Shown here: piece after piece, positions 53,022-62,940 of the stretch
Numbering within the stretch: the first letter of the stretch is position 1
Layout: the number at the start of each line of letters is the position of its first letter
Origin: Gemmatimonadota bacterium
Lineage (GTDB): Bacteria > Gemmatimonadota > Gemmatimonadetes > Longimicrobiales > Gaopeijiaceae
Reading direction: 5' to 3'
Assembly: GCA_034521595.1 (NCBI GenBank)
Contig: JAXHMG010000003.1
Span: forward strand, 1,216,001 to 1,280,000
DNA length: 64,000 bases
The notes under the pieces: generated by a model
Database searches by the model: none
What the model was told of the DNA's origin: nothing
Seen by the model: the letters and a program-made list of their open reading frames with translations, nothing else
Made by a program: the position numbers and the translations under genes

Positions 53022-54409
53022 AGCGCGCGAGCGCTCTCTTGGCCACGGCCGTCCTGACCGGATGTGCCGGAGGGGCCTCCGGGCCCGCCGGTCCCGTGGT
53101 GTCCCCCACGGGTATCGTCTACGAGCCCGGCACCCCTCCTTCCGAGACACAGTACTCACAGACCGCGGCGCTTTATCTCCGCTCCGACGAGCCGGAGCGC
53201 GCGCTACGCCGAGCCCTGGAGGGCGTCGAGGCCGATCCCGGGAACCCGATCCATCACTTTCTCGCGGGCGTGGCCCATGCACGTCTCGGTGCGTACGAGG
53301 CCGCCGACTCCCTGTGGAAGACGGCGCAACGCATCTACCCCGCGTACGAGCTCGACATCGAGCCCGAGCGCCTCGCCGCATGGGCGGACGCCTTCAACGA
53401 GGGGTCGGATGCGTACGCGGAAAGACGGGATTCCGCCGCGATCCGCGCGTGGCGCGACGCCACCCTGATGTACAACCTCCGCCCCGAAGCTCACCGTAAC
53501 CTGGGCATGCTCCTCACCCAACAAGGTCGTCTGAACGAGGCAGCGGAGGTCTATCGAGACCTCCTCGAGGGCCTGCAACGGGTGCCCGCGACGAGGCACC
53601 TGAGCGACGAAGCGAGATCGCGTCGTGCCGCCACCCGCATCGAAACGGAGGAGCGCCTCTCGGAAGCACTCCTACTGAGCGACCGATACGCCGAGGCCGA
53701 GCCGCTGCTACGGCAGAAGGTGGCCCGGAACCCCGAGGACCCCCGAGCTCGCCAGGCGCTCGCCGACGCTCTGGTGGGCCAGGAGCTGCGGGAGGAAGCC
53801 CGAGCCATTTACGACGAGCTCCTCGCCGACGACCGTCTGGACGGCACGGACCTCCACAATCTGGGGGTCACCCTCTTTCGAGCGGGCTTTCCGAAACGGG
53901 CGGCGGAGGCGTTCCGGCTCCTCACCGAAGCACGTCCGGACGCTCGCGACGCTTGGTTCAACTACGCGAACGCCCTCCTCGCCTCGGAGCGGTGGGAGAC
54001 GCTCGTTGCCGTGACCGACCAACTCGTTCAGCTCGACCCCCTCGGAGAAGGAGCCGGAATGATCGCGGCCCGCGCGCGCCTCGAATCCGGTGACGAACAG
54101 GGCGCCCTCCAGCGGCTCGAAGAGGTCGATACCGCCCCCGTTCACCTGGAGGGACTCGTCCTGCAACCGGCATCCTCGGCGACCCGGCTGGAAGGCCGGG
54201 TGGTCGGCAACGCCGGCGAGCCCGGAAGTGCCCTACGCCTCCGCTTCACCTTCTTCGGAGAAGGCTCCGGAGACGCAGGCCGGGCCTACGCCGAGACGTC
54301 GGTTCAGGTGCCGCCGGCCGACGAGAGTCACCCACTCGAGCTCACGGTCGGCATACGCGCGACGGGTTACCGGTACGAAGTCGTGGAGACGGCGGAGTCG
54401 GGCGGATAA
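53015..54409 (+). CDS. TPR-repeat lipoprotein, paralog of 6885..8330
   Basis: Lipobox LTGC, TPR-like helices, beta-rich C-terminus; overlaps the TonB stop. Confidence 0.78.
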   Translation: MVKRASALLATAVLTGCAGGASGPAGPVVSPTGIVYEPGTPPSETQYSQTAALYLRSDEPERALRRALEGVEADPGNPIHHFLAGVAHARLGAYEAADSLWKTAQRIYPAYELDIEPERLAAWADAFNEGSDAYAERRDSAAIRAWRDATLMYNLRPEAHRNLGMLLTQQGRLNEAAEVYRDLLEGLQRVPATRHLSDEARSRRAATRIETEERLSEALLLSDRYAEAEPLLRQKVARNPEDPRARQALADALVGQELREEARAIYDELLADDRLDGTDLHNLGVTLFRAGFPKRAAEAFRLLTEARPDARDAWFNYANALLASERWETLVAVTDQLVQLDPLGEGAGMIAARARLESGDEQGALQRLEEVDTAPVHLEGLVLQPASSATRLEGRVVGNAGEPGSALRLRFTFFGEGSGDAGRAYAETSVQVPPADESHPLELTVGIRATGYRYEVVETAESGG

Positions 54410-55758
54410 ACCCGCAGGAGGAGATCGTCTCCATCGCGCGGGACACCACGCCCGTCCGTGTTGCTCGTACCGAGCCAAAGGCCCCCGTCGGGGGCGACGC
54501 GAACCAAACGAAGCCGCCCGAAATCCTGCTCGAAGACGACCTCCTCGCACCCGACGCGCCATTGGCCTCTTCCGTCCCGCTCGAGGTCGAGCCGGCGCAA
54601 AGTCTCTCCGCGGAGCCCCGTCACCAAAGCGCTTCCACCCCACGATGAGCCGTCATCCGGGTAAAGGGCGAGGCCCGCGGGCGCGATCGCCGGCACCCAG
54701 GTCACCAGAGCCGACACGAAGGGCCCTCCTTCGGTGGTCCCGGTCGTGATCGGCCATCCCAGGTGGTCGCCCGCCTCGAGGGCGTTCAACTCGTCGCGAT
54801 TTCCGCGATAGCCCTCCTGCACCATCCCCGACGGTCCGTGATCAATGGCGAACATCTGCCCCGTCTCCGCTTCCCACGCCATCCCTTGGACGTGGCGGAT
54901 TCCCGAGGCGAAGACGGGGGACGAGCTCTGCCCGTCCACACCGTCCGGACGGCCGTCCGGACGGTAGCGGAGGATCTTTCCTCGAAGCGATTCCGGGGCA
55001 TGGGCCGTCCACGGCTCGGTGGCATCTCCGTTACTGACGTATAGCAATCCGTCGGGACCGAAGCGGAGGCTGCCACCGCCATGCAACATGAAAGCGGGCA
55101 ACCCATCGACGATCACCTCCGGATCTCCCGCTCGGCCATCAACTTCAGTCAGGCGAAGCACGCGCAGCGTGGTCGGGTGCCCACGTTCCGAATCGAACAT
55201 ACGTTGTAGCCGACGCCAGGCGCCAAGCAGCCCTCGAGACACGGCGTTCGACGGGATGCTCCTGTGCGTCGCCGCCACGTACACCTCCAACGCCCCCGCT
55301 TCGTTCGTTCTGGCGTCGATGCCCATGAGTCCGACCTCCTCCTGGGCGTAGACGTTCAGCTCGGCCCAGGGTTCCGAGTCGATCGTACCGTCGGCCCGGA
55401 CCATCCGAATGCGTCCGGGGCGCTCCGTGAACAAAGCACGTCCGTCCGGCAAAAACACGAGATCCCAAGGCACGGACAGCCCGGTCCCCAGGGTGTCCAC
55501 ACGCAGCGCTCCGGCCGAAGAGGGATCTTCGGCATCGAGTGTCTCACACACGGGCACCGAAGGTTCGGTCTCGCGCACCCCGAGCTCTTCGAGTGTCGGC
55601 AGGTCGCCCTCTTCCGGGCCGCACGCCCCGACGATCATGAGCAACACGCTCGAGACGAGCGCGTACTCGAGGCTCCCTCCGCGACGGGAGCGGAAGGGTG
55701 GACCGTCTCGGTGCCACTCGGAACGGAAGAACGAACCTACCAGAACAGGGCGGATCAC
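54367..55758 (-). CDS. PQQ-dependent glucose/sorbosone (aldose sugar) dehydrogenase, probable lipoprotein; start uncertain
   Basis: GLSVPWDLVFLPDG, TERPGRI, HGGGSLRFGPDG, GIRHVQG, DHGP, DELN, GWP, GRLR. Confidence 0.88.
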   Translation of the reverse strand: MIRPVLVGSFFRSEWHRDGPPFRSRRGGSLEYALVSSVLLMIVGACGPEEGDLPTLEELGVRETEPSVPVCETLDAEDPSSAGALRVDTLGTGLSVPWDLVFLPDGRALFTERPGRIRMVRADGTIDSEPWAELNVYAQEEVGLMGIDARTNEAGALEVYVAATHRSIPSNAVSRGLLGAWRRLQRMFDSERGHPTTLRVLRLTEVDGRAGDPEVIVDGLPAFMLHGGGSLRFGPDGLLYVSNGDATEPWTAHAPESLRGKILRYRPDGRPDGVDGQSSSPVFASGIRHVQGMAWEAETGQMFAIDHGPSGMVQEGYRGNRDELNALEAGDHLGWPITTGTTEGGPFVSALVTWVPAIAPAGLALYPDDGSSWGGSALVTGLRGETLRRLDLERDGRGQWRVGCEEVVFEQDFGRLRLVRVAPDGGLWLGTSNTDGRGVPRDGDDLLLRVYPPDSAVSTTSYR

Positions 55759-55880
55759 TTGGACCTCGACTCCATGGTGTTGGTGTTGCAGTATGTGGGA
55801 GCCGGTTCACCGGATCTCCGGCTCGGGCGACCTTCCTACTCAGGACGTTCGTGTACGATCCCCGCAACAAGGAGGACCCC

Positions 55881-56840
55881 GTGCCCCGCTGGCCGACCTC
55901 GACCCCGCTCCCAGGCGCGGCGAAATCGTTGCAGCGCCTCGGACTCGGGGGGATGCCACTCTCGATCTCGGTTCGGCCCGATCCGGCCGAGGCCCGCGCG
56001 TTGATCCGGCACGCGGTCGAGTCCGGCGTGGAGCTCATCGACACGGCCGACAGCTACGCACGGGACGACCGTGAGACCGGACACAACGAACGGTTGATCG
56101 CCGACGCCCTTCGCGAGATGGACATGGACCCCGCGGCCGGGCTCGAGGAAGCGGTACCGATCGTCGCGACGAAAGGCGGGCGCACACGCCCCGGAGGCGA
56201 GTGGGCGATCAACGGCAGGCCCGAGCACCTCCGCCAAGCGTGCCACGCGAGCCTCGAGGCGCTCGGAGTCGACCGCATCCCGCTGTATCAACTCCACACT
56301 CCCGACCCTGACGTTCCGTTCGAGGAGAGCGTGGGCGCCCTCGTGCAGCTGCGTGACGAAGGAAAGATCGGGCTCATCGGCCTCTCGAACGTCTCACTGA
56401 AGCAGATGGACACGGCCAGCGCGCTCACCCCCATCGCATCCGTGCAGAACCGGCTCTCGGTGTGGGACGCGGGGCTTCGAAAGCCTCCCGTGGTCGCTCG
56501 CTGTGCCGCCCAAGGCATCCTGTTCATGGCATACGCCCCCCTCGGGGGTCGAGAGAGAGCGGGCTCGTTGGGCGACGTCGGGCCGCTCGCCGCTCTAGCC
56601 GAAAGCCTCCGCGTGACCCCCCAGGAGCTCGCGCTCGCGTGGCTGTTCGACCTCGATCCGGCCATCGTTCCGATTCCGGGAGCCACGCGGACCTCGAGCA
56701 TCGACAGCGGGCTTCGAGCGCTCCGGCTCGAATTGGAGCCCCACCACATTCGCGATCTTCGCCGCGCGCTCCGTCAGATGCCCGACCGAAAAGGGGTCGC
56801 TACGCGGATCGCGTCGAAGGTTCGTCGAGCTCTGGACTAA
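55881..56840 (+). CDS. Aldo/keto reductase
   Basis: GLGGM, IDTADSY, ATKGG, LYQLH, IGLSN, PIPG; GGAGG SD before the GTG at 55881. Confidence 0.92.
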   Translation: MPRWPTSTPLPGAAKSLQRLGLGGMPLSISVRPDPAEARALIRHAVESGVELIDTADSYARDDRETGHNERLIADALREMDMDPAAGLEEAVPIVATKGGRTRPGGEWAINGRPEHLRQACHASLEALGVDRIPLYQLHTPDPDVPFEESVGALVQLRDEGKIGLIGLSNVSLKQMDTASALTPIASVQNRLSVWDAGLRKPPVVARCAAQGILFMAYAPLGGRERAGSLGDVGPLAALAESLRVTPQELALAWLFDLDPAIVPIPGATRTSSIDSGLRALRLELEPHHIRDLRRALRQMPDRKGVATRIASKVRRALD

Positions 56841-56882: not shown

Positions 56883-58034
56883 TCATCGGGACGGCAACAC
56901 CCAGAGCCGGCCGAGCGTGTCGGCGTCCAGCTCCACCGTCCGAATGTGCTCGAGTGAATCGGCATCAAAGACGTCGATCGTGTTCCCCGCATTATAAAGA
57001 TAGAGGAGCTCTCCATTGGAGCTGACCTCGAGCTCCATGCGCGGCCGCCCGTCGAACTCAACGTGCCGGGCGGTTCCCGCCTCCATGTCGATCGCCCACA
57101 TCTGATAGTTCTCGAGCTCCTGGTGGAGCCCGTACGCGTGATCACGGTCCGGAGCGAGGGCGAAGCTGACGCGGGACGTCGGTCCGGTTTCCGACGGCCC
57201 CAGCAGGAAGAAGTCGATATCCCTCGAGCCGGGATTGGCGCGCGCGACTCCCAGGAGCTCGCGGTCCTGCACTTCCTCGTCGATGCGGAACATCCCGGTA
57301 TGCCAGCCCTCTACCTCACGAGGAGTGGTGGGGAATCCGAATTCGAAGTCACCGAGACCCTGATCGAGGGCGTCCCCGTATTCCCAGCGGTCCGTGGGCT
57401 CGTACGTGTCGGTGTCGTAGATCCGAACGTCGTCCATGAAGAAGTAGAGCGCCTCGCCGTCGGGCGAATAAGCGAAGCTGGCGCCCTCCTGGGGCTCGCC
57501 GTCGGGCCACGGGACGTCCTGCACGACCCGGTGCTCGTCCATGTCGTAGAGCACCAACTCCATCTCCCCGATCTCCCACCGATCCCGCAGCTTCTCGTAG
57601 CGCCGGGTCATGAGCACGGCATGCCTGCCGTTCGGGTGGACCGCCATGCCGCGGATCCGGATCCTCGAATTCCGCTCACTGAGCGTGAATGCATCGACGC
57701 TCTCCCGCGTCTCGAGATCGATCACCTCCACGTGCTCGTAGTCGATCATCTGGGCGATGATCCGCCGCCCGTCGGCAGTCGGCGTGAGGGTGCCGGGGAT
57801 GCCCGAGGTCGTGGCGATCTTGTCCACCAGGGTCAGGTCCGATTCACGCAGCACGTGGATGGACCGCTCGTACGTCGCCACATAGATCAGGCCGTCGCCA
57901 CCGCTCCGGACCTGGGCTTCCGAGACGGTGGGGATCGCCGCGGCAGCGAGCGCGACGAGCACCAGCACCGTCTCTCGGACGGTCGGGTACCGACCCGGCG
58001 CGAGGAGGCGTTTCCAGCGCGTCACGGCGGTCAC
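56883..58034 (-). CDS. qhpB: Quinohemoprotein amine dehydrogenase beta subunit (beta-propeller)
   Basis: Signal peptide, propeller-like repeats (YSPDGEALY, SSNGELLYL..IDVFDADSLE); GTGA overlap with qhpC; expected position in the operon. Confidence 0.75.
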   Translation of the reverse strand: MTAVTRWKRLLAPGRYPTVRETVLVLVALAAAAIPTVSEAQVRSGGDGLIYVATYERSIHVLRESDLTLVDKIATTSGIPGTLTPTADGRRIIAQMIDYEHVEVIDLETRESVDAFTLSERNSRIRIRGMAVHPNGRHAVLMTRRYEKLRDRWEIGEMELVLYDMDEHRVVQDVPWPDGEPQEGASFAYSPDGEALYFFMDDVRIYDTDTYEPTDRWEYGDALDQGLGDFEFGFPTTPREVEGWHTGMFRIDEEVQDRELLGVARANPGSRDIDFFLLGPSETGPTSRVSFALAPDRDHAYGLHQELENYQMWAIDMEAGTARHVEFDGRPRMELEVSSNGELLYLYNAGNTIDVFDADSLEHIRTVELDADTLGRLWVLPSR

Positions 58035-58435
58035 GGGAACACCAGATCCAGCTTCCGCCAGTCTTTCTGGGCCGCCGCGCACTTGCTGGTCCAGTCGCCC
58101 GCGTTGTTGAGCTGATCGGGAACCTGCGCGGGCCAGAAACAGCCCAGGTGGCAGTCGAAGAGGTCTCGCTCGACGGGCTGACAGAGACCGGCGGTCCCAC
58201 CCCCGGAGTCGGTCTCCCACCCCGGAGAGAAGATCAGGGTGCACCCGAAGGGAATCTGAGGACCGTCGGGCCCCGAGCTTTCCAATCCCACCACGTCGAG
58301 CTCGTCTTCGGCCGAGGCCGCCCCCGTTCCGTCCGGGTGCTCACCCTCGGAAGCCGCGGCGGCGCTCCGCCGCTCACCCTCGACGTAGCGCTCGACGCGC
58401 GCCGCCTTTTGGTTGACCGCCTTGATACGCCTCAT
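58031..58435 (-). CDS. qhpC: Quinohemoprotein amine dehydrogenase gamma subunit (CTQ precursor)
   Basis: GCTLIFSPGWE, LCQPVERDLFDC, CFWPAQVPD, DWRKL; leader MRRIKAVNQKA. Confidence 0.93.
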   Translation of the reverse strand: MRRIKAVNQKAARVERYVEGERRSAAAASEGEHPDGTGAASAEDELDVVGLESSGPDGPQIPFGCTLIFSPGWETDSGGGTAGLCQPVERDLFDCHLGCFWPAQVPDQLNNAGDWTSKCAAAQKDWRKLDLVFP

Positions 58436-58446
58436 GTCCCGTCGCC

Positions 58447-59874
58447 TCAGTGCTCGAAGTGGTTCAGGAATCCCGGGTTGCGCACCGCTAGCGCCCCGTA
58501 GACGCGCAGACAGATGTCCGTCCACGAACGAATCCACTCACAGTAGTGAAGATTGGGCGCCTTCGTCGTTCCGTACCGAGTGTGCGCCTCGTGATAACAC
58601 CCGCCCGCACAGAGAGGCCGTGCCCAGCAGGTGTGGCAATCGGGCTTGTACGCGACGTGGTGCTCCTCAAGGAACTGCACCTGCTTCTCCCGATCCACGC
58701 CATCGGTGACACTCCCGAAACGATGCTCTTCCGATCCCGCGAACCGGTGGCATAGGCCGAGATTCCCGTCGGTCGAGACCCCGAGCATGCCGACCCCCGC
58801 ACCACACGGGTGGGACTTGCTGAATCCCTTGTGGATCTCCTCGATGGACTCGCTCACGTTCGAGAACCCGTGGTGACGCCCTTGAACGGCATATTCGAGC
58901 CACTCCCAGGCCAGCTCCTCGAACTGTTCGAGCATCCGGTCGAGCGCCTCGCCCTCGATCGCGTAGTCACGACCTTCGGCGGTCGTCACGGGGGCGAAGC
59001 CAACCTCCCAGAACCCGATGTCTTCGGTCAGGTGCCGGAACGCCCCGATCACGTCGAGGTTCTGCTTGGTGAGCGTCACGCGGGCTCCGACCGGTCGCGA
59101 CGTGTGCCGCTGGAGGAGCTCACGGACGCGCGGGACGACCTCGTCGTAACTTCCCTTTCCGTTGTTGAAGACGCGCAGCTCGTCCTGCACCTCGCGTGGC
59201 CCGTCGATCGAGACCGTGACGCCGACCTCGTTCTCGGCGAGCCATTCGATGACGTCCGGTTTGAGGAGCGTTCCGTTCGTCGTGAGGCTGAAGTCGACCC
59301 TCTTACCCTCTGCCTCCGCCCGCTCACGGGCATAAGCGAGCGTGGACTGCAGGAGCTTGAAGTTCAGCAGCGTCTCCCCTCCGAAGAAGGTCAGATGACA
59401 CCGCTCGCCCACTCCGGCCTCCGCGAGCATGAAGTCCACGCTCTGGCGGGCCGTTTCCTCGTCCATGAACCGCGGCATGGTGCCCGCTTCCACCAGCTTG
59501 TCGTCACCGTACTCGTAGCAGTACGTGCACCCGAGGTTGCACTTGCTCGTGACGTTCAGGACCATCGTCTTGAGCGGGATTCCGTCCGGCGGCGCCTCGA
59601 CCGGCATGGGCTCGGGTCCCGCGTCCTCGGGCCCGATGGCACGGACCTCGTAGAGGTCGACGACGGCGGCGCGGACTTCGGCGGGCGGAAGCGTGTCGGA
59701 AAGGCCGGACTCCAGCCCTTCGACGGTGTCCGGTCCCACGTCTTCGAGCCGATCGAGCACGGCCGAGGCGGCGTCATCGGCACAGAACACCGCCGCGCTC
59801 GGCACCAGGTAGAGGAAGCGCAGCCCCTCGGCCTCGAAGGCGTGGTATTCTCTGGGGGCCAGTCGAGCGCTCAT
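58447..59874 (-). CDS. qhpD: Radical SAM/SPASM thioether-forming maturase
   Basis: CNLGCTYC, FFGGE, SIDG, SPASM CGAG..CHRF..CHTCWARPLCAGGCYHE; ATGA overlap with qhpA. Confidence 0.93.
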   Translation of the reverse strand: MSARLAPREYHAFEAEGLRFLYLVPSAAVFCADDAASAVLDRLEDVGPDTVEGLESGLSDTLPPAEVRAAVVDLYEVRAIGPEDAGPEPMPVEAPPDGIPLKTMVLNVTSKCNLGCTYCYEYGDDKLVEAGTMPRFMDEETARQSVDFMLAEAGVGERCHLTFFGGETLLNFKLLQSTLAYARERAEAEGKRVDFSLTTNGTLLKPDVIEWLAENEVGVTVSIDGPREVQDELRVFNNGKGSYDEVVPRVRELLQRHTSRPVGARVTLTKQNLDVIGAFRHLTEDIGFWEVGFAPVTTAEGRDYAIEGEALDRMLEQFEELAWEWLEYAVQGRHHGFSNVSESIEEIHKGFSKSHPCGAGVGMLGVSTDGNLGLCHRFAGSEEHRFGSVTDGVDREKQVQFLEEHHVAYKPDCHTCWARPLCAGGCYHEAHTRYGTTKAPNLHYCEWIRSWTDICLRVYGALAVRNPGFLNHFEH

Positions 59875-61589
59875 CGGTTCCCTCCCTCCTGGATGGTGTT
59901 CACGACTTCGGCGCGCGGCTCCCATTCGATGTAGCTGGGCGGTGAGACGACCAGGAAGCCGCGCGCACGCAGGGGCGCTTCCGACATGGGAGCGCCCTCC
60001 CTTCGGTGCTCGGCCCGGACCCACACCTCCCCGATGTTGTTTCTGAGGCCGCTGCGTTCCGGATTGGGACCGTCCACCGCCGGGGTGAAACGGCCGTCCT
60101 GGTCGATCTCGCCGACGAAGTCCACGTCATCGTCGTCCCAGGTGCGCGGGTATTCGACCAGGCTCCAGCTCGCGTCCACGACGCCAATCCGGATGTCGTC
60201 GTCCGTGTCGCGCTCGCCGTCCGGACCGACGGCGAAGCCAACGGCCTCGAACCGCGCATATCCGGGAGCGAAGTTGCCCCCTCCCGTCCGGGCGATGGCC
60301 GGATGGGGCTCGACGCGGATGTAGTCGACCGCTTCGTAGACCACGAGGGCGCGATCCGCCCGGGCTCCGGCGATCACGACATCACGCGCGCCCGCAGGCG
60401 CACCCTCCTCGACCCGGATGCGAAGAGTGGCTCGATCCGACGCGACCTCGTCCACTCCGAGGATCTCCACGCCGGCCCCGAGATCGACATCTTGCGCGCC
60501 CAGAGACTCTGGCAGGTTGGCTCCGAAAATGCGGATCCGTTCCTCCGCACCGGTCACGGCCTTCTCCGGATACGCTCCGAGCACGACCGGAGCCGAGCCG
60601 ATTCGCACCATCTCGACATCGACGCCGATCTCCTCGTAGGCACCGGTGAACCACCGTCCATACATCTCGTTCCAGTCCCGCTCGACGAACATCACCTCGC
60701 GGAGCTCGGTATGCTCACCACCCGTTCCGTTCGAGCTTCCGCGCCACTGGTAACCGGTGTAGACGGTCGCCTCGCCGGAACGCTCGACGGTCCGGTCTTC
60801 CGCGGGGTAGAGATAGCGGGCCGAGGTGGTGAAGTCCTCACGCGCGGGCCCGTCGGCGGAGACGGTCACCGTGCCGTAGAGGGGGCCTCGGCCGACCTCA
60901 CGCCCCCGTACGGCCCAACGCCCCTCGATCCGAGCGGGCCGCATGTTTCGGGACCAGTCGCTCCAAGCCCTCGTTTCGAGCGGGTACTGCTCCGCGAGAC
61001 GCGCCACCGCGGCGTCCACCGGAAACTCGAAATCTCCTTCTTCTTCGGGAACGGAACCCCGGCGAAAGCGCTGGCGGTCGATGAGGGGATAGAGCCCCCG
61101 ATGCGTCTCGGTGACGAGCTCCCACTCCTCCGGGGTGCGACGCTGCGTCGCGATCCGCCCGAGAGTATGACAGGCGGTACAGGTCCGGCGGACCACTTCG
61201 GACATCTCCGGACGCTCCGTCAAATGCCGCCGCTCCACTTCCCAGAAGGCCGGACGCAGCTCCTCGGGCGCGAGGCCGTGCCGGTTGGCGAGGTAGCGTA
61301 CGATCTCTCGAGCGTCCTCGGGATCGACGCTCACGTCGTTGAGGGACACCATCCGCCGGATCGACTGGCTCCAGCCTTCGGGCGTCTTCCGAAGGTAGGA
61401 GATCCGGCTCATCCGTCCGTCGTCGTCCTGCTGATGACATCGGCTACAGTTGCGCACCACCAGCTCGCTCGTGACCGGGATGCCCTCCACGGCCCCCTGC
61501 CCTTCCTGCGCGTTCCCGGATTCGGGCACGGAGAGAACGGCCCCCACCAAGCCCACGCTGATGACCACGAGCGGACCTCGTCTCAGCAT
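59871..61589 (-). CDS. qhpA: Quinohemoprotein amine dehydrogenase alpha subunit (di-haem c)
   Basis: Signal peptide, CSRCH and CTACH, SRIS..RKTPEGW, YTGYQWRG, IARTGG, DDDVDFVG, GPNPER. Confidence 0.93.
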   Translation of the reverse strand: MLRRGPLVVISVGLVGAVLSVPESGNAQEGQGAVEGIPVTSELVVRNCSRCHQQDDDGRMSRISYLRKTPEGWSQSIRRMVSLNDVSVDPEDAREIVRYLANRHGLAPEELRPAFWEVERRHLTERPEMSEVVRRTCTACHTLGRIATQRRTPEEWELVTETHRGLYPLIDRQRFRRGSVPEEEGDFEFPVDAAVARLAEQYPLETRAWSDWSRNMRPARIEGRWAVRGREVGRGPLYGTVTVSADGPAREDFTTSARYLYPAEDRTVERSGEATVYTGYQWRGSSNGTGGEHTELREVMFVERDWNEMYGRWFTGAYEEIGVDVEMVRIGSAPVVLGAYPEKAVTGAEERIRIFGANLPESLGAQDVDLGAGVEILGVDEVASDRATLRIRVEEGAPAGARDVVIAGARADRALVVYEAVDYIRVEPHPAIARTGGGNFAPGYARFEAVGFAVGPDGERDTDDDIRIGVVDASWSLVEYPRTWDDDDVDFVGEIDQDGRFTPAVDGPNPERSGLRNNIGEVWVRAEHRREGAPMSEAPLRARGFLVVSPPSYIEWEPRAEVVNTIQEGGNR

Positions 61590-61782: not shown

Positions 61783-62940
61783 TCAGTTCCTGGTGTCGGC
61801 CGGCTCCAGTCGGAGGATGGGGGTTCGCGCCCCGTCCTCCCCCTCGACCGCGACGTATAGGTATCCATCGGGGCCCTCCCGTACAGCGCGGACCCGCCCG
61901 ATATCCGGTAGAAGCACTTCCTCCCGCACGATCTCGGTCCCATCCAAATCGAGGCGCGCGAGATACCCACCACTCAGGCCGCCGGCGAACGCATCTCCCT
62001 GCCAACGCGGGAAGCGGTCTCCGGTATAGAAGGTGAGGCCGGAAACCCCGATCGACGGGACCCACACGTGCACCGGCTGCTCCATCCCTTCCCGGTGCGT
62101 GCCCTCGTGGATCGCCGAGCCCGAGCCGTAATTCACCCCGTACCCGATCACGGGCCAACCGTAGTTCGCCCCCGCACGCACGATGTTGACCTCGTCCCCG
62201 CCCTGGGGCCCGTGCTCGTTGAGCCAGATGTCGCCCGTCTCCGGATGGATCGCGAGGCCCTGTGCGTTGCGATGTCCGTAGCTGTAGATGTCGGGGAGAG
62301 CCCCTGCCTGGTCGACGAACGGATTGTCATCCGGAACGCTCCCGTCGTCGTGCAGCCGCAGCGTCACGCCGTGATGGTTGGAGAGGTCCTGTGCGGGATG
62401 CGCCTCGAGGTCGCCGCTCGGCGAGACCTGCCGGTCTCCGACGGTGATGTACAGATAGCCATCGTCGTCGAACACGAGGCGAGATCCGTAGTGCCCGCGA
62501 CCCGACGACTCCGCTTCGAAGATCTCCTCCACCTCACTGAGCTGATCGTCCTCGAAGCGTCCTCGGATGACCGCGGTCGTGGAGCCGGACGCGAGCGGCT
62601 TCGAGTAGGACAGATAGACGAGGCGGTTGGACTCGAAGTCGGGATGGAGCGTGACGTCGAGCAAGCCCCCCTGCCCCTGGGCATGAACCTCCGGGACTCC
62701 TGGAACGGGGTCCGGAAGCAAGCGCCCATCCCGCACGATCCGCAGGCGCCCCGGACGCTCCGTGACGAGCATGTCGCCGCCCGGGAGGAACGCCATCGAC
62801 CAGGGCACCTCCAGGCCGTCCACCACGGTGACCGCACGGAAGTCGTGCGCCGCCGAGCGGTGGACGTCTTGAGCGTTCGTATCGCACGCGCTCAGCGCGA
62901 GTGCAGCCATCAACCATGCCGAACGTGTCCAGCGCCTCAT
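61783..62940 (-). CDS. PQQ-dependent aldose sugar dehydrogenase (YliI/Asd-like) lipoprotein
   Basis: Lipobox LSAC, PWSMAFLP, GQGGLLDV, HYGSRL, YGHRNAQG, EHGPQGGDEVN, NYGWP. Confidence 0.92.
   Translation of the reverse strand: MRRWTRSAWLMAALALSACDTNAQDVHRSAAHDFRAVTVVDGLEVPWSMAFLPGGDMLVTERPGRLRIVRDGRLLPDPVPGVPEVHAQGQGGLLDVTLHPDFESNRLVYLSYSKPLASGSTTAVIRGRFEDDQLSEVEEIFEAESSGRGHYGSRLVFDDDGYLYITVGDRQVSPSGDLEAHPAQDLSNHHGVTLRLHDDGSVPDDNPFVDQAGALPDIYSYGHRNAQGLAIHPETGDIWLNEHGPQGGDEVNIVRAGANYGWPVIGYGVNYGSGSAIHEGTHREGMEQPVHVWVPSIGVSGLTFYTGDRFPRWQGDAFAGGLSGGYLARLDLDGTEIVREEVLLPDIGRVRAVREGPDGYLYVAVEGEDGARTPILRLEPADTRN

What the first reader, a model, noticed from the sequence alone, without database searches (positions are those of the whole stretch)
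58031..58250. QhpC variant with a fifth Cys positioned for a fourth thioether crosslink and altered active-site residues
Known (Paracoccus numbering, from memory): crosslinks C7-E16, C27-D33 and C41-D49, plus CTQ C37-W43. Seen: all eight residues keep exact spacing here. An extra C61 (codon 58079-58081) sits six residues before D67 (CAAAQKD), the same Cx5D spacing as C27-D33. Positions 12 and 42 are Ser and Phe where the characterised enzymes have Asp and Trp, which I recall line the substrate pocket. Inference: a new QHNDH subfamily with four radical-SAM crosslinks and a different substrate range.
Basis: partly seen in the sequence, partly recalled or inferred. Interest (0 to 1): 0.75.

Follow-up and report, generated by a model that had tools for sequence, protein, structure and literature searches.

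The report
Fifth conserved cysteine in QhpC
This gene encodes the small cofactor-bearing subunit of a bacterial amine dehydrogenase, and it has a fifth cysteine that the two studied enzymes lack but most other lineages keep, so it may form an undescribed fourth internal crosslink that only mass spectrometry or a structure can confirm.

Summary
Window 58031-58435 (-) is qhpC, inside a translationally coupled qhpA-D-C-B operon of a Gemmatimonadota genome. All eight canonical crosslink and CTQ residues align without gaps to both solved gamma subunits. Cys61, Ser12 and Phe42 replace Ala61, Asp12 and Trp42.

- **Conservation of Cys61:** it is present in 121 of 121 close homologs and 80 of 80 genome loci from Gemmatimonadota and Acidobacteriota. 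Both Cys codons are used.
- **Not specific to this subfamily:** Cys61 also occurs in every other deep QhpC lineage sampled, including ones with Asp/Glu12 and Trp42. It is missing only from the characterised proteobacterial clade (0 of 120) and one small subclade.
- **No disulfide partner:** QhpA has only its four haem cysteines and QhpB has none.
- **Asp67:** this proposed acceptor is nearly invariant with or without Cys61, so covariation cannot decide the question.
- **Structure:** both predictions were too poor to test the geometry.

A fourth QhpD thioether stays plausible at about 0.4 but is unproven. A different substrate range is untested. The scan reached the same reading on two other genomes.

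The parts
59871..61589 (-). qhpA, the dihaem alpha subunit (572 aa). It has an N-terminal signal-like segment and only four Cys, in two CxxCH motifs.
   Evidence: NCBIfam TIGR03908 459.8 bits against a cut-off of 274. Pfam haem-binding domain plus domains II, III and IV. Sequence.
58447..59874 (-). qhpD, the radical SAM/SPASM thioether-forming maturase (about 475 aa). Its start ATG overlaps the qhpA stop as ATGA.
   Evidence: TIGR03906 562.6 bits against a cut-off of 453, matching residues 59-523 of the 525-aa ORF. PF04055. The start is inferred from the ORF sequence.
58031..58435 (-). qhpC, the gamma-subunit precursor (134 aa from the ATG at 58435, which lies 12 nt after the qhpD stop).
   Evidence: PF08992 and NF037958 above their cut-offs. 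The N-terminus MRRIKAVNQKA fits the homolog consensus MKHLKAxNxKA.
58262..58435 (-). Leader peptide, about 58 residues and without Cys, compared with 28 in the model enzymes. The cleavage site is inferred by alignment only.
   Evidence: Translation. Alignment to the PDB chains. The 28-residue leader is stated in PMC7876137 passages.
58034..58261 (-). Mature gamma-subunit domain, residues 1-76 in Paracoccus/Pseudomonas numbering.
   Evidence: Ungapped alignment to 1jmx_G and 1jju_C, residues 5-76.
58079..58081 (-). Cys61 codon (tgc), the fifth cysteine.
   Evidence: sequence. Conserved in 121 of 121 proteins and 80 of 80 loci.
58061..58063 (-). Asp67 codon (gac), the candidate thioether acceptor at +6.
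   Evidence: sequence. Asp in 103 of 103 unique Cys61 domains and 115 of 120 unique non-Cys61 domains.
58226..58228 (-). Ser12 codon. The canonical clade has Asp12.
   Evidence: Canonical clade Asp12 in 120 of 120. This clade has S71, A42, F5, Q2, D1 of 121.
58133..58153 (-). CTQ loop Cys37-His-Leu-Gly-Cys41-Phe42-Trp43. The canonical loop is Cys-Ser/Ala-Asp-Pro-Cys-Trp-Trp.
   Evidence: Positions 38-42 are tabulated.
56883..58034 (-). qhpB, the beta-propeller subunit (383 aa). Its GTG start overlaps the qhpC stop as GTGA. It has a signal-like N-terminus, contains no Cys and is very divergent.
   Evidence: TIGR03907 only 57.5 bits against a cut-off of 223. The same gene follows qhpC in 80 of 80 related loci. 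Sequence.

Best explanation
**Shown.** This is qhpC, the gamma subunit of a periplasmic quinohemoprotein amine dehydrogenase. It sits in a coupled qhpA-qhpD-qhpC-qhpB operon. A qhpG-qhpF-qhpE maturation and export cluster lies about 1.03 Mb away on the same contig.

**Inferred from the known pathway.**
1. QhpD binds the leader and makes the Cys7-Glu16, Cys27-Asp33 and Cys41-Asp49 thioethers in the cytoplasm.
2. QhpG hydroxylates Trp43 so that the Cys37-Trp43 quinone (CTQ) can form.
3. QhpE removes the leader and QhpF exports the peptide.
4. The peptide then assembles with QhpA and QhpB and oxidises primary amines, passing electrons through the two haems.

**The new element.** Cys61 is the majority, probably ancestral, state of the family. 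The studied proteobacterial enzymes have lost it.

**Committed mechanism (inference).** QhpD also joins the Cys61 sulfur to the beta-carbon of Asp67. That gives a fourth seven-residue ring like Cys27-Asp33. It would remove an otherwise unpaired periplasmic thiol and stiffen the C-terminal segment.

The changed residues around the cofactor probably alter the pocket and the fit to QhpG. These are Ser/Ala12, Arg32, Asp36, Leu39-Gly40 and Phe/Tyr42. The substrate is unknown.
For: **Identity and context**
- Family scores and operon.
- PDB register.
- Own-genome QhpG-like gene (213.7 bits), QhpE-like gene (142 bits) and an ABC exporter between them.
- Relatives carry G-A-D-C-B-(E)-F clusters. QhpB is in 80, the ABC exporter in 68, QhpG-like in 53 and QhpE-like in 42 of 80 loci, many of them truncated.

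**Functional importance of Cys61**
- Present in 121 of 121 proteins and 80 of 80 loci, with TGC 69 and TGT 11.
- Present in 34 of the 43 intact cluster representatives.
- Present in 15 of the 17 further hits (P0264-P0280) of the P0146 search. Three of these hits are named Sericytochromatia or Vulcanimicrobiota.
- On the tree it is absent only from the canonical clade and from P0279/P0280.
- In the canonical clade the same position is free to vary: A80, K25, S7, V3, E2, I, N, Q of 120. The fold therefore does not demand a particular residue there.

**No disulfide partner**
- The window's QhpA has four Cys, all in CxxCH. QhpB has none and the leader has none.
- Across relatives, QhpB has 0 Cys in 32 of 80 and QhpA has exactly 4 in 28 of 75.

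**Acceptor**
- Besides Asp18, Asp67 is the only unused acidic position conserved in both Cys61 groups, and the only one downstream.
- It is Asp in 103 of 103 unique Cys61 domains. Gly replaces it in 5 of 120 domains without Cys61.
- The spacing equals that of Cys27-Asp33.
- QhpD already makes three rings of different size and acceptor (PMC8172795 and PMC13692751 passages).
Against: - No chemical or structural datum exists for any Cys61-type protein. Only two distinct gamma-subunit sequences are in the PDB, and both are four-Cys.
- Asp67 is 96% conserved without Cys61 (115 of 120). Its presence therefore needs no crosslink, and real covariation is absent. The five Gly67 proteins fall into only two sequence groups and are related to each other.
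- The segment Cys-Ala-Ala-Ala-Gln-Lys-Asp has no Gly or Pro, unlike the three known rings.
- AlphaFold2 with 121 rows predicts one helix over mature residues 57-70 (block pLDDT 62-66, overall 54.1). In an ideal alpha-helix, residues i and i+6 are about 10 A apart, which is too far for a thioether. That model is weak: it matches no PDB fold.
- The most common residue in the clade without Cys61 is Ala (80 of 120). Ala is also the usual replacement for a buried free cysteine.
- QhpD is selective. It leaves Cys37 untouched in the model enzymes.
- In the Binatia-type lineage with a one-residue insertion, the +6 residue is Glu in three loci but Gln in one (L089). There the acceptor would have to sit at +7.
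Confidence: 0.4

Rival explanations
1. Cys61 stays an unmodified thiol. It would be packed on the hydrophobic face of the C-terminal helix (Trp57, Cys61, Ala64, Trp68, Leu71, Phe75) against the core or against the divergent beta or alpha subunit. The enzyme would then have the usual three QhpD thioethers plus CTQ.
For: - AlphaFold2 predicts a continuous helix over residues 57-70.
- The i, i+3/4, i+7 spacing of conserved hydrophobic residues is kept in both clades with no indel.
- Ala is the commonest residue at position 61 where Cys is missing (80 of 120).
- Asp67 is conserved regardless of Cys61.
- QhpB is very divergent here (57.5 bits against a cut-off of 223), so position 61 could be covered in this clade even if it is exposed in the model enzymes.
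Against: - A merely structural small residue should drift to Ala, Ser, Thr or Val over phylum-level divergence. Cys61 is invariant in 121 of 121 proteins and 80 of 80 loci, and in nearly all other deep lineages.
- In the canonical clade the position accepts Lys, Glu, Gln and Asn, which suggests an exposed site.
- Unpaired exposed thiols are disfavoured in periplasmic proteins (general knowledge).
- The helix model has low confidence and the model matches no solved fold.
- The Binatia-type lineage keeps the Cys despite a one-residue insertion that would shift the helical register.
Confidence: 0.3
2. Cys61 has another covalent or ligand role. Candidates are an intermolecular disulfide (gamma-gamma or to an electron-transfer partner), a link to a non-Cys residue of QhpA or QhpB, a thioether to a different acceptor (Asp72 or Asp18), or a metal ligand.
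For: - It is an invariant, unpaired Cys at a position that is variable in the canonical clade.
- Asp72 is present in 80 of 80 loci of this clade, and Asp18 is nearly invariant family-wide.
- Two divergent lineages (P0193, P0257) carry a Cys at position 72 as well, hinting that positions 61 and 72 may lie near each other.
Against: - Asp72 is not kept in the other Cys61 lineages. Position 72 is acidic in 0.05 of the 20 Trp42-plus-Cys61 domains.
- An acceptor upstream of the donor Cys, such as Asp18, is atypical for this enzyme class. In all three known QhpC links the Cys comes first, and a 2026 paper says the same of CrpA.
- No metal site or dimer is known for QHNDH (recalled; not tested here).
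Confidence: 0.2
3. Cys61 has no particular function and its conservation reflects only shared ancestry.
For: Many of the sequences are close relatives. The mature domains of the best 120 hits are 60-90% identical overall.
Against: - It is kept across Gemmatimonadota, Acidobacteriota, Binatia, Sericytochromatia and Vulcanimicrobiota lineages at 37-50% identity, while neighbouring positions 62-66 vary.
- Both codons are used.
Confidence: 0.05

Closest known systems
[quoted passage not shown]
   Same: - Ungapped alignment over residues 5-76.
- All three Cys-Asp/Glu pairs and the CTQ Cys37/Trp43 at identical positions.
- Asp67-Trp68-Arg69 and the C-terminal Phe-Pro.
- Same operon partners: qhpA, qhpD and qhpB.
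- QhpG, QhpE and an ABC exporter encoded in the genome.
   Different: - A fifth Cys at position 61, where the solved chains have Ala.
- Ser12 for Asp12, and Phe42 for Trp42.
- Arg32, Asp36 and His38-Leu39-Gly40 instead of Ala32, Gly36 and Ser/Ala38-Asp39-Pro40.
- A leader of about 58 residues against 28.
- A beta subunit far below the family cut-off (57.5 against 223 bits).
- Maturation genes in a separate locus.
- About 49% identity in the mature domain.
QhpD / ranthipeptide maturases (PapB, CteB): radical SAM/SPASM enzymes that join the Cys sulfur to the C-beta or C-gamma of Asp or Glu
   Same: The window's QhpD scores as an equivalog of TIGR03906 (562.6 bits). Its next best matches are PapB and SCIFF maturases. 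A Cys61-Asp67 link would be the same chemistry with the donor ahead of the acceptor.
   Different: Only three QhpD links per QhpC are described in the literature seen (passages of PMC7876137, PMC8172795, PMC11951088 and PMC13692751). A fourth site in the C-terminal segment is not described there.
Cys61-bearing QhpC of other uncultured lineages (Acidobacteriota, Binatia, Sericytochromatia, Vulcanimicrobiota)
   Same: Cys61 followed by Asp67-Trp68. Annotated only as the QHNDH gamma subunit.
   Different: The Sericytochromatia and Binatia types keep Asp/Glu/Asn12 and Trp42. The Binatia type has one extra residue between the Cys and Asp-Trp.

Membership tests
QhpC / QH_gamma (PF08992, NF037958) | Profile score above the curated cut-off | tested here: met
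   PF08992 113.8 bits against 25. NF037958 119.7 bits against 50.
QhpC / QH_gamma (PF08992, NF037958) | Cys7/Glu16, Cys27/Asp33, Cys41/Asp49 and Cys37/Trp43 at canonical spacing | tested here: met
   Ungapped alignment to 1jmx_G and 1jju_C. The spacing motif was found in 121 of 121 proteins.
QhpC / QH_gamma (PF08992, NF037958) | Encoded next to qhpA, qhpD and qhpB | tested here: met
   TIGR03908 459.8 bits and TIGR03906 562.6 bits are above their cut-offs. QhpB hits TIGR03907 at only 57.5 bits (cut-off 223), but the same gene follows qhpC in 80 of 80 related loci.
QhpC / QH_gamma (PF08992, NF037958) | Maturation genes qhpG, qhpE and qhpF present in the genome | tested here: met
   G000:C3 about 181.9-185.9 kb. 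QhpG-like 213.7 bits (cut-off 240) and QhpE-like 142 bits (cut-off 165) are both just under their cut-offs. An ABC exporter 59-61% identical to the relatives' operon exporter lies between them.
QhpC / QH_gamma (PF08992, NF037958) | Thioethers and CTQ actually formed; amine dehydrogenase activity | not testable with these tools
   Needs protein chemistry.
Characterised proteobacterial QHNDH type (P. putida / P. denitrificans) | Four Cys only; Asp12; Asp39-Pro40; Trp42 | tested here: not met
   The canonical set has 4 Cys in 119 of 120, Asp12 in 120 of 120, Asp39 in 120 of 120, Pro40 in 117 of 120 and Trp42 in 119 of 120. The window has 5 Cys, Ser12, Leu39-Gly40 and Phe42.
Proposed four-thioether QhpC (hypothetical) | Fifth Cys conserved in the clade | tested here: met
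   121 of 121 proteins. 80 of 80 loci with both codons in use.
Proposed four-thioether QhpC (hypothetical) | Acidic acceptor downstream that covaries with the Cys | tested here: inconclusive
   Asp67 is present in 103 of 103 unique domains with Cys61 and in 115 of 120 without it. It is always there, but it is barely specific to Cys61.
Proposed four-thioether QhpC (hypothetical) | Residues 61 and 67 close enough in space to bond | tested here: inconclusive
   The AlphaFold2 models are poor (pLDDT 45.7 and 54.1) and match no PDB fold. The coordinates of 1JJU and 1JMX could not be read with these tools.
Proposed four-thioether QhpC (hypothetical) | No alternative partner for the fifth Cys | tested here: met
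   QhpA has only CxxCH cysteines. QhpB and the leader have none. There is no conserved extra Cys in relatives. Partners outside the heterotrimer were not tested.
Proposed four-thioether QhpC (hypothetical) | Chemical proof of the bond | not testable with these tools
   Needs MS or a structure.

The most novel reading that the evidence does not exclude
Most quinohemoprotein amine dehydrogenases in nature carry a fourth radical-SAM thioether (Cys61 to Asp67) in the gamma subunit. QhpD would then be natively a four-site crosslinker, and the textbook three-crosslink subunit of Pseudomonas and Paracoccus would be a derived form that lost one ring.
Probability: 0.35. Interest if true: 0.65.

Novelty: new variant of a known kind. 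Interest (0 to 1): 0.5.

Why it matters
QHNDH is the textbook case of a protein matured like a RiPP: three radical-SAM thioethers surround a protein-derived quinone. All of that knowledge comes from two proteobacterial enzymes.

Here the studied four-cysteine gamma subunit turns out to be the odd one out among the lineages sampled. If the fifth cysteine is crosslinked, the known modification map is incomplete for most of the family, and QhpD's site selection would need revisiting.

If the cysteine stays free, it is an unusually conserved unpaired periplasmic thiol that needs its own explanation.

Either way there is a simple published assay that can decide it: intact mass plus iodoacetamide labelling after co-expression with QhpD (PMC7876137). 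The Gemmatimonadota/Acidobacteriota clade also has a rebuilt cofactor loop and a very divergent beta subunit, so its substrates are worth screening.

Tried and rejected
- **AlphaFold2 of the mature domain.** With 46 rows the mean pLDDT was 45.7. With 121 rows it was 54.1. Only local helix propensity was usable.
- **Foldseek search.** The second model gave 0 matches against the PDB, not even the solved gamma subunits. No geometry was taken from it.
- **Complex prediction of QhpA + QhpB + QhpC.** It returned no answer (ipSAE 0.00 and 0.02, below the mark) and gave no contacts. It is not used as evidence either way.
- **Structure and QhpD papers.** Datta 2001 (PMC64671) and Nakai 2015 (PMC4409272) are not held. 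The secondary structure around residues 57-72, and the roles of Asp12 and Trp42 in the substrate pocket, could not be checked. What I say about a C-terminal helix in the crystal structures is recalled.
- **Literature searches.** The terms QhpC/thioether/QhpD, QHNDH, QHNDH gamma subunit/substrate specificity and QHNDH with Gemmatimonad/Acidobacteri found no description of a five-Cys QhpC or of this clade. Supplements of PMC7876137 were not opened. Nakai 2014 (Biochemistry) was not looked up and may survey qhp operons.
- **Asp72 as the covarying partner.** Rejected. It is invariant in this clade (80 of 80 loci) but rare in the other Cys61 lineages.
- **An acidic residue fixed at +6 in the insertion-bearing Binatia lineage.** It holds in three of four loci but not in L089.
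- **An intersubunit disulfide.** Rejected for lack of any Cys in QhpB and any spare Cys in QhpA.
Full report
**1. What is in the sequence**

The minus-strand ORF 58031..58537 is a QhpC. It scores 113.8 bits on Pfam PF08992 (cut-off 25) and 119.7 bits on NCBIfam NF037958 (cut-off 50). The likely start is the ATG at 58435, giving 134 aa. That ATG lies 12 nt after the qhpD stop, and MRRIKAVNQKA fits the N-terminal consensus of homologs.

The gene sits in a tightly coupled operon:
- qhpA, 59871-61589 (TIGR03908, 459.8 bits).
- qhpD, 58447-59874 (TIGR03906, 562.6 bits), with an ATGA overlap onto qhpA.
- qhpC.
- qhpB, 56883-58034, with a GTGA overlap onto qhpC. It scores only 57.5 bits on TIGR03907 against a cut-off of 223.

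**2. Checking the observation**

Only two distinct gamma-subunit sequences exist in the PDB copy, 1jmx_G and 1jju_C.
- Cys7, Glu16, Cys27, Asp33, Cys37, Cys41, Trp43 and Asp49 are all in place.
- Residue 61 is Cys (tgc, 58079-58081), where both solved chains have Ala.
- Residue 12 is Ser where they have Asp, and residue 42 is Phe where they have Trp.
- Asp67 lies six residues after Cys61, but both solved enzymes have Asp67 too.

The recalled crosslink list is confirmed by passages of the review PMC8172795.

**3. How conserved the fifth cysteine is**

A word-indexed search found 2386 proteins at E <= 0.001 and listed the best 120. With the window's own ORF added, all 121 contain the spacing motif and all 121 have Cys61 and Asp67. 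Position 12 is S71, A42, F5, Q2, D1, and position 42 is F116, Y5.

That pattern also fits Trp42-type QhpC, so 601 is not a count of this clade. Most of the 80 closest loci are named Gemmatimonadota (Longimicrobiales, Palauibacter, Gemmatimonadaceae) or Acidobacteriota (Vicinamibacterales, Bryobacteraceae, Solibacteraceae, Blastocatellia). All 80 have Cys61, Asp67 and Asp72. The Cys codon is TGC in 69 and TGT in 11.

In the window's own phylum the family is patchy: 54 of 301 sampled genomes and 18 of 127 genera have a match.

**4. The fifth cysteine is not special to this clade**

Of the 143 cluster representatives found by exhaustive HMMER search, 100 were fragments, frameshifted or chimeric over residues 41-70 and were dropped. 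Of the 43 intact ones, 34 have Cys61 (18 with Phe42, 9 with Tyr42, 6 with Trp42, 1 with Gly42). All 43 have Asp67.

The search with P0146 listed 20 proteins, three of them named Sericytochromatia or Vulcanimicrobiota. In this lineage Glu12 or Asp12 and Trp42 go with Cys61 in 15 of the 17 further hits, P0264-P0280. Two of the 17, P0279 and P0280, have Thr61.

A Binatia-type lineage keeps the Cys with one extra residue before Asp-Trp.

The proteobacterial type gives the opposite picture. The query P0163 found 758 proteins and listed the best 120; named hits include Azoarcus, Gammaproteobacteria, Sphingomonadales and Competibacteraceae. Among those 120:
- Cys61 occurs in 0 of 120.
- Position 61 varies freely: A80, K25, S7, V3, E2, I, N, Q.
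- Pro62 occurs in 82, Asp12 in 120, Trp42 in 119, and exactly four Cys in 119.

I built a maximum-likelihood tree of 69 rows, chosen for diversity from the 399 proteins held, over 72 columns. The sequences without Cys61 form one well-supported clade (98/89) plus P0279/P0280. Every other deep branch carries Cys61. Rebuilding with column 61 removed (quick method) needs 3 changes, of which starred branches force 2.

The alignment is short, many forks are open and the root is only a midpoint. 'Ancestral' is therefore a likely reading, not a shown one. What is shown is that the studied four-Cys enzymes are the minority type among the lineages sampled, and that Cys61 is not coupled to Ser12/Phe42.

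**5. What could Cys61 bond to?**

An intersubunit disulfide is excluded for this organism. QhpA has four cysteines, all in two CxxCH haem motifs. QhpB has none and the leader has none. In relatives QhpB has no Cys in 32 of 80 loci, and QhpA has exactly four in 28 of 75. Those ORF calls are partly over-extended or truncated.

I compared 223 unique mature domains, obtained after filtering the 399 proteins for an intact register and removing duplicates. Besides the residues already used in known links, only two acidic positions are conserved in both Cys61 groups: Asp18 (upstream) and Asp67 (downstream).
- Asp67 is present in 103 of 103 unique Cys61 domains.
- It is present in 115 of 120 domains without Cys61.
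- The five exceptions have Gly67 and fall in two sequence groups: P0300/P0303 and P0377/P0379/P0386.

This goes in the direction the crosslink idea predicts. It is weak because the sequences are related and Asp67 is plainly maintained for another reason as well. Asp72, invariant in this clade, is not kept in the other Cys61 lineages.

**6. Geometry**

This is the test I could not complete. AlphaFold2 on the mature domain gave pLDDT 45.7 with 46 rows and 54.1 with 121 rows. The second model matches nothing in the PDB, not even the solved gamma subunits.

Its only element is a helix over mature residues 57-70 (block pLDDT 62-66). If that helix is real and continuous, Cys61 and Asp67 are i and i+6 on a helix. 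From ideal helix geometry they would be about 10 A apart, and a thioether would be impossible.

Against relying on this:
- The canonical clade has Pro62 in 82 of 120.
- Many lineages have Ser, Asn or Thr at 63 or Gly-Asn at 62-63.
- This reads more like a helix that starts near residue 63. Residue 61 would then lie just before the helix cap, where it could fold back onto the first turn.

That last point is my inference. The structure papers are not held.

**7. Surroundings and pathway**

Relatives usually carry qhpG upstream of qhpA and an ABC exporter, often with qhpE, downstream of qhpB. Of 80 loci, many truncated, the exporter is in 68, QhpG-like in 53 and QhpE-like in 42.

The window lacks these genes nearby. 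The same contig has a qhpG-like gene (213.7 bits, cut-off 240), an ABC exporter 59-61% identical to the relatives' one, and a qhpE-like gene (142 bits, cut-off 165), all at about 181.9-185.9 kb. That is roughly 1.03 Mb from the operon. The full maturation route described for the model enzymes is therefore available (PMC7876137 passages).

The leader is about 58 residues here against 28 in the model enzymes.

**8. Active-site claim**

The substitutions are real and clade-wide. Besides residues 12 and 42, the cofactor loop differs: Arg32, Asp36 and His38-Leu39-Gly40 replace Ala32, Gly36 and Ser/Ala38-Asp39-Pro40. Position 12 is itself variable within the clade (S, A, F, Q, L, D).

The text I could read says only two things about these residues. 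Asp12 is part of the acidic surface of the gamma subunit. Trp42 fits a hydrophobic pocket of QhpG in a docking model (PMC7876137). Together with the very divergent beta subunit, this makes a different pocket and substrate range reasonable, but it remains untested.

**9. Verdict**

The clade is real, and the fifth cysteine is functionally constrained and unpaired.
- The cysteine is a family-wide feature missing from the model enzymes, not a marker of this subfamily.
- The fourth thioether remains a hypothesis. I put it at about 0.4, against 0.3 for a free buried thiol, 0.2 for another covalent or ligand role, and 0.05 for no particular function.

Literature searches found no description of a five-Cys QhpC. 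Recent papers still describe three QhpD links. Two earlier notes of this scan on other genomes reached the same reading. My counts are independent of them and agree.

Noticed in passing
window 56883-58034 (-): The QhpB beta-propeller scores only 57.5 bits on TIGR03907 (cut-off 223) and has no Pfam family hit. Yet the same gene follows qhpC in 80 of 80 related loci. The beta subunit of this clade is far more diverged than the alpha, gamma or QhpD proteins.
   Followed up: partly
own genome G000:C3 about 181.9-185.9 kb (L082, L086), outside the window: qhpG-like, ABC-exporter (qhpF-like) and qhpE-like genes form their own cluster about 1.03 Mb from the qhpADCB operon. Most relatives keep them beside the structural genes.
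   Followed up: partly
window 58262-58435 (-): The QhpC leader is about 58 residues, twice the 28 of the model enzymes. The extra length is an acidic, Ala/Gly-rich insert between the conserved N-terminal KAxNxKA motif and the DVVxL motif. Lengths vary widely among relatives.
   Followed up: no
window 54367-55758 (-) and 61783-62940 (-): Two GSDH-family (PF07995, soluble PQQ-type glucose/sorbosone dehydrogenase) genes flank the qhp operon, with an aldo/keto reductase (55698-56840, +) between one of them and qhpB.
   Followed up: no
proteins P0193 and P0257: Two very divergent QhpC relatives carry further cysteines, including one at position 72, in addition to Cys61. They may have more crosslinks or a disulfide.
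   Followed up: no
loci L087-L090 (Binatia-type): A QhpC lineage with Asn12 and Trp42 has one extra residue between the fifth Cys and Asp-Trp (C-x5-E/Q-D-W).
   Followed up: partly
genome-contig record titles: Several loci of this clade sit in MAGs labelled Bifidobacteriaceae, Bifidobacterium or Thermodesulfobacteriota (L017, L019, L026, L070). One protein is labelled Thioalkalivibrio (P0010). These labels look like binning or naming errors rather than real hosts.
   Followed up: no
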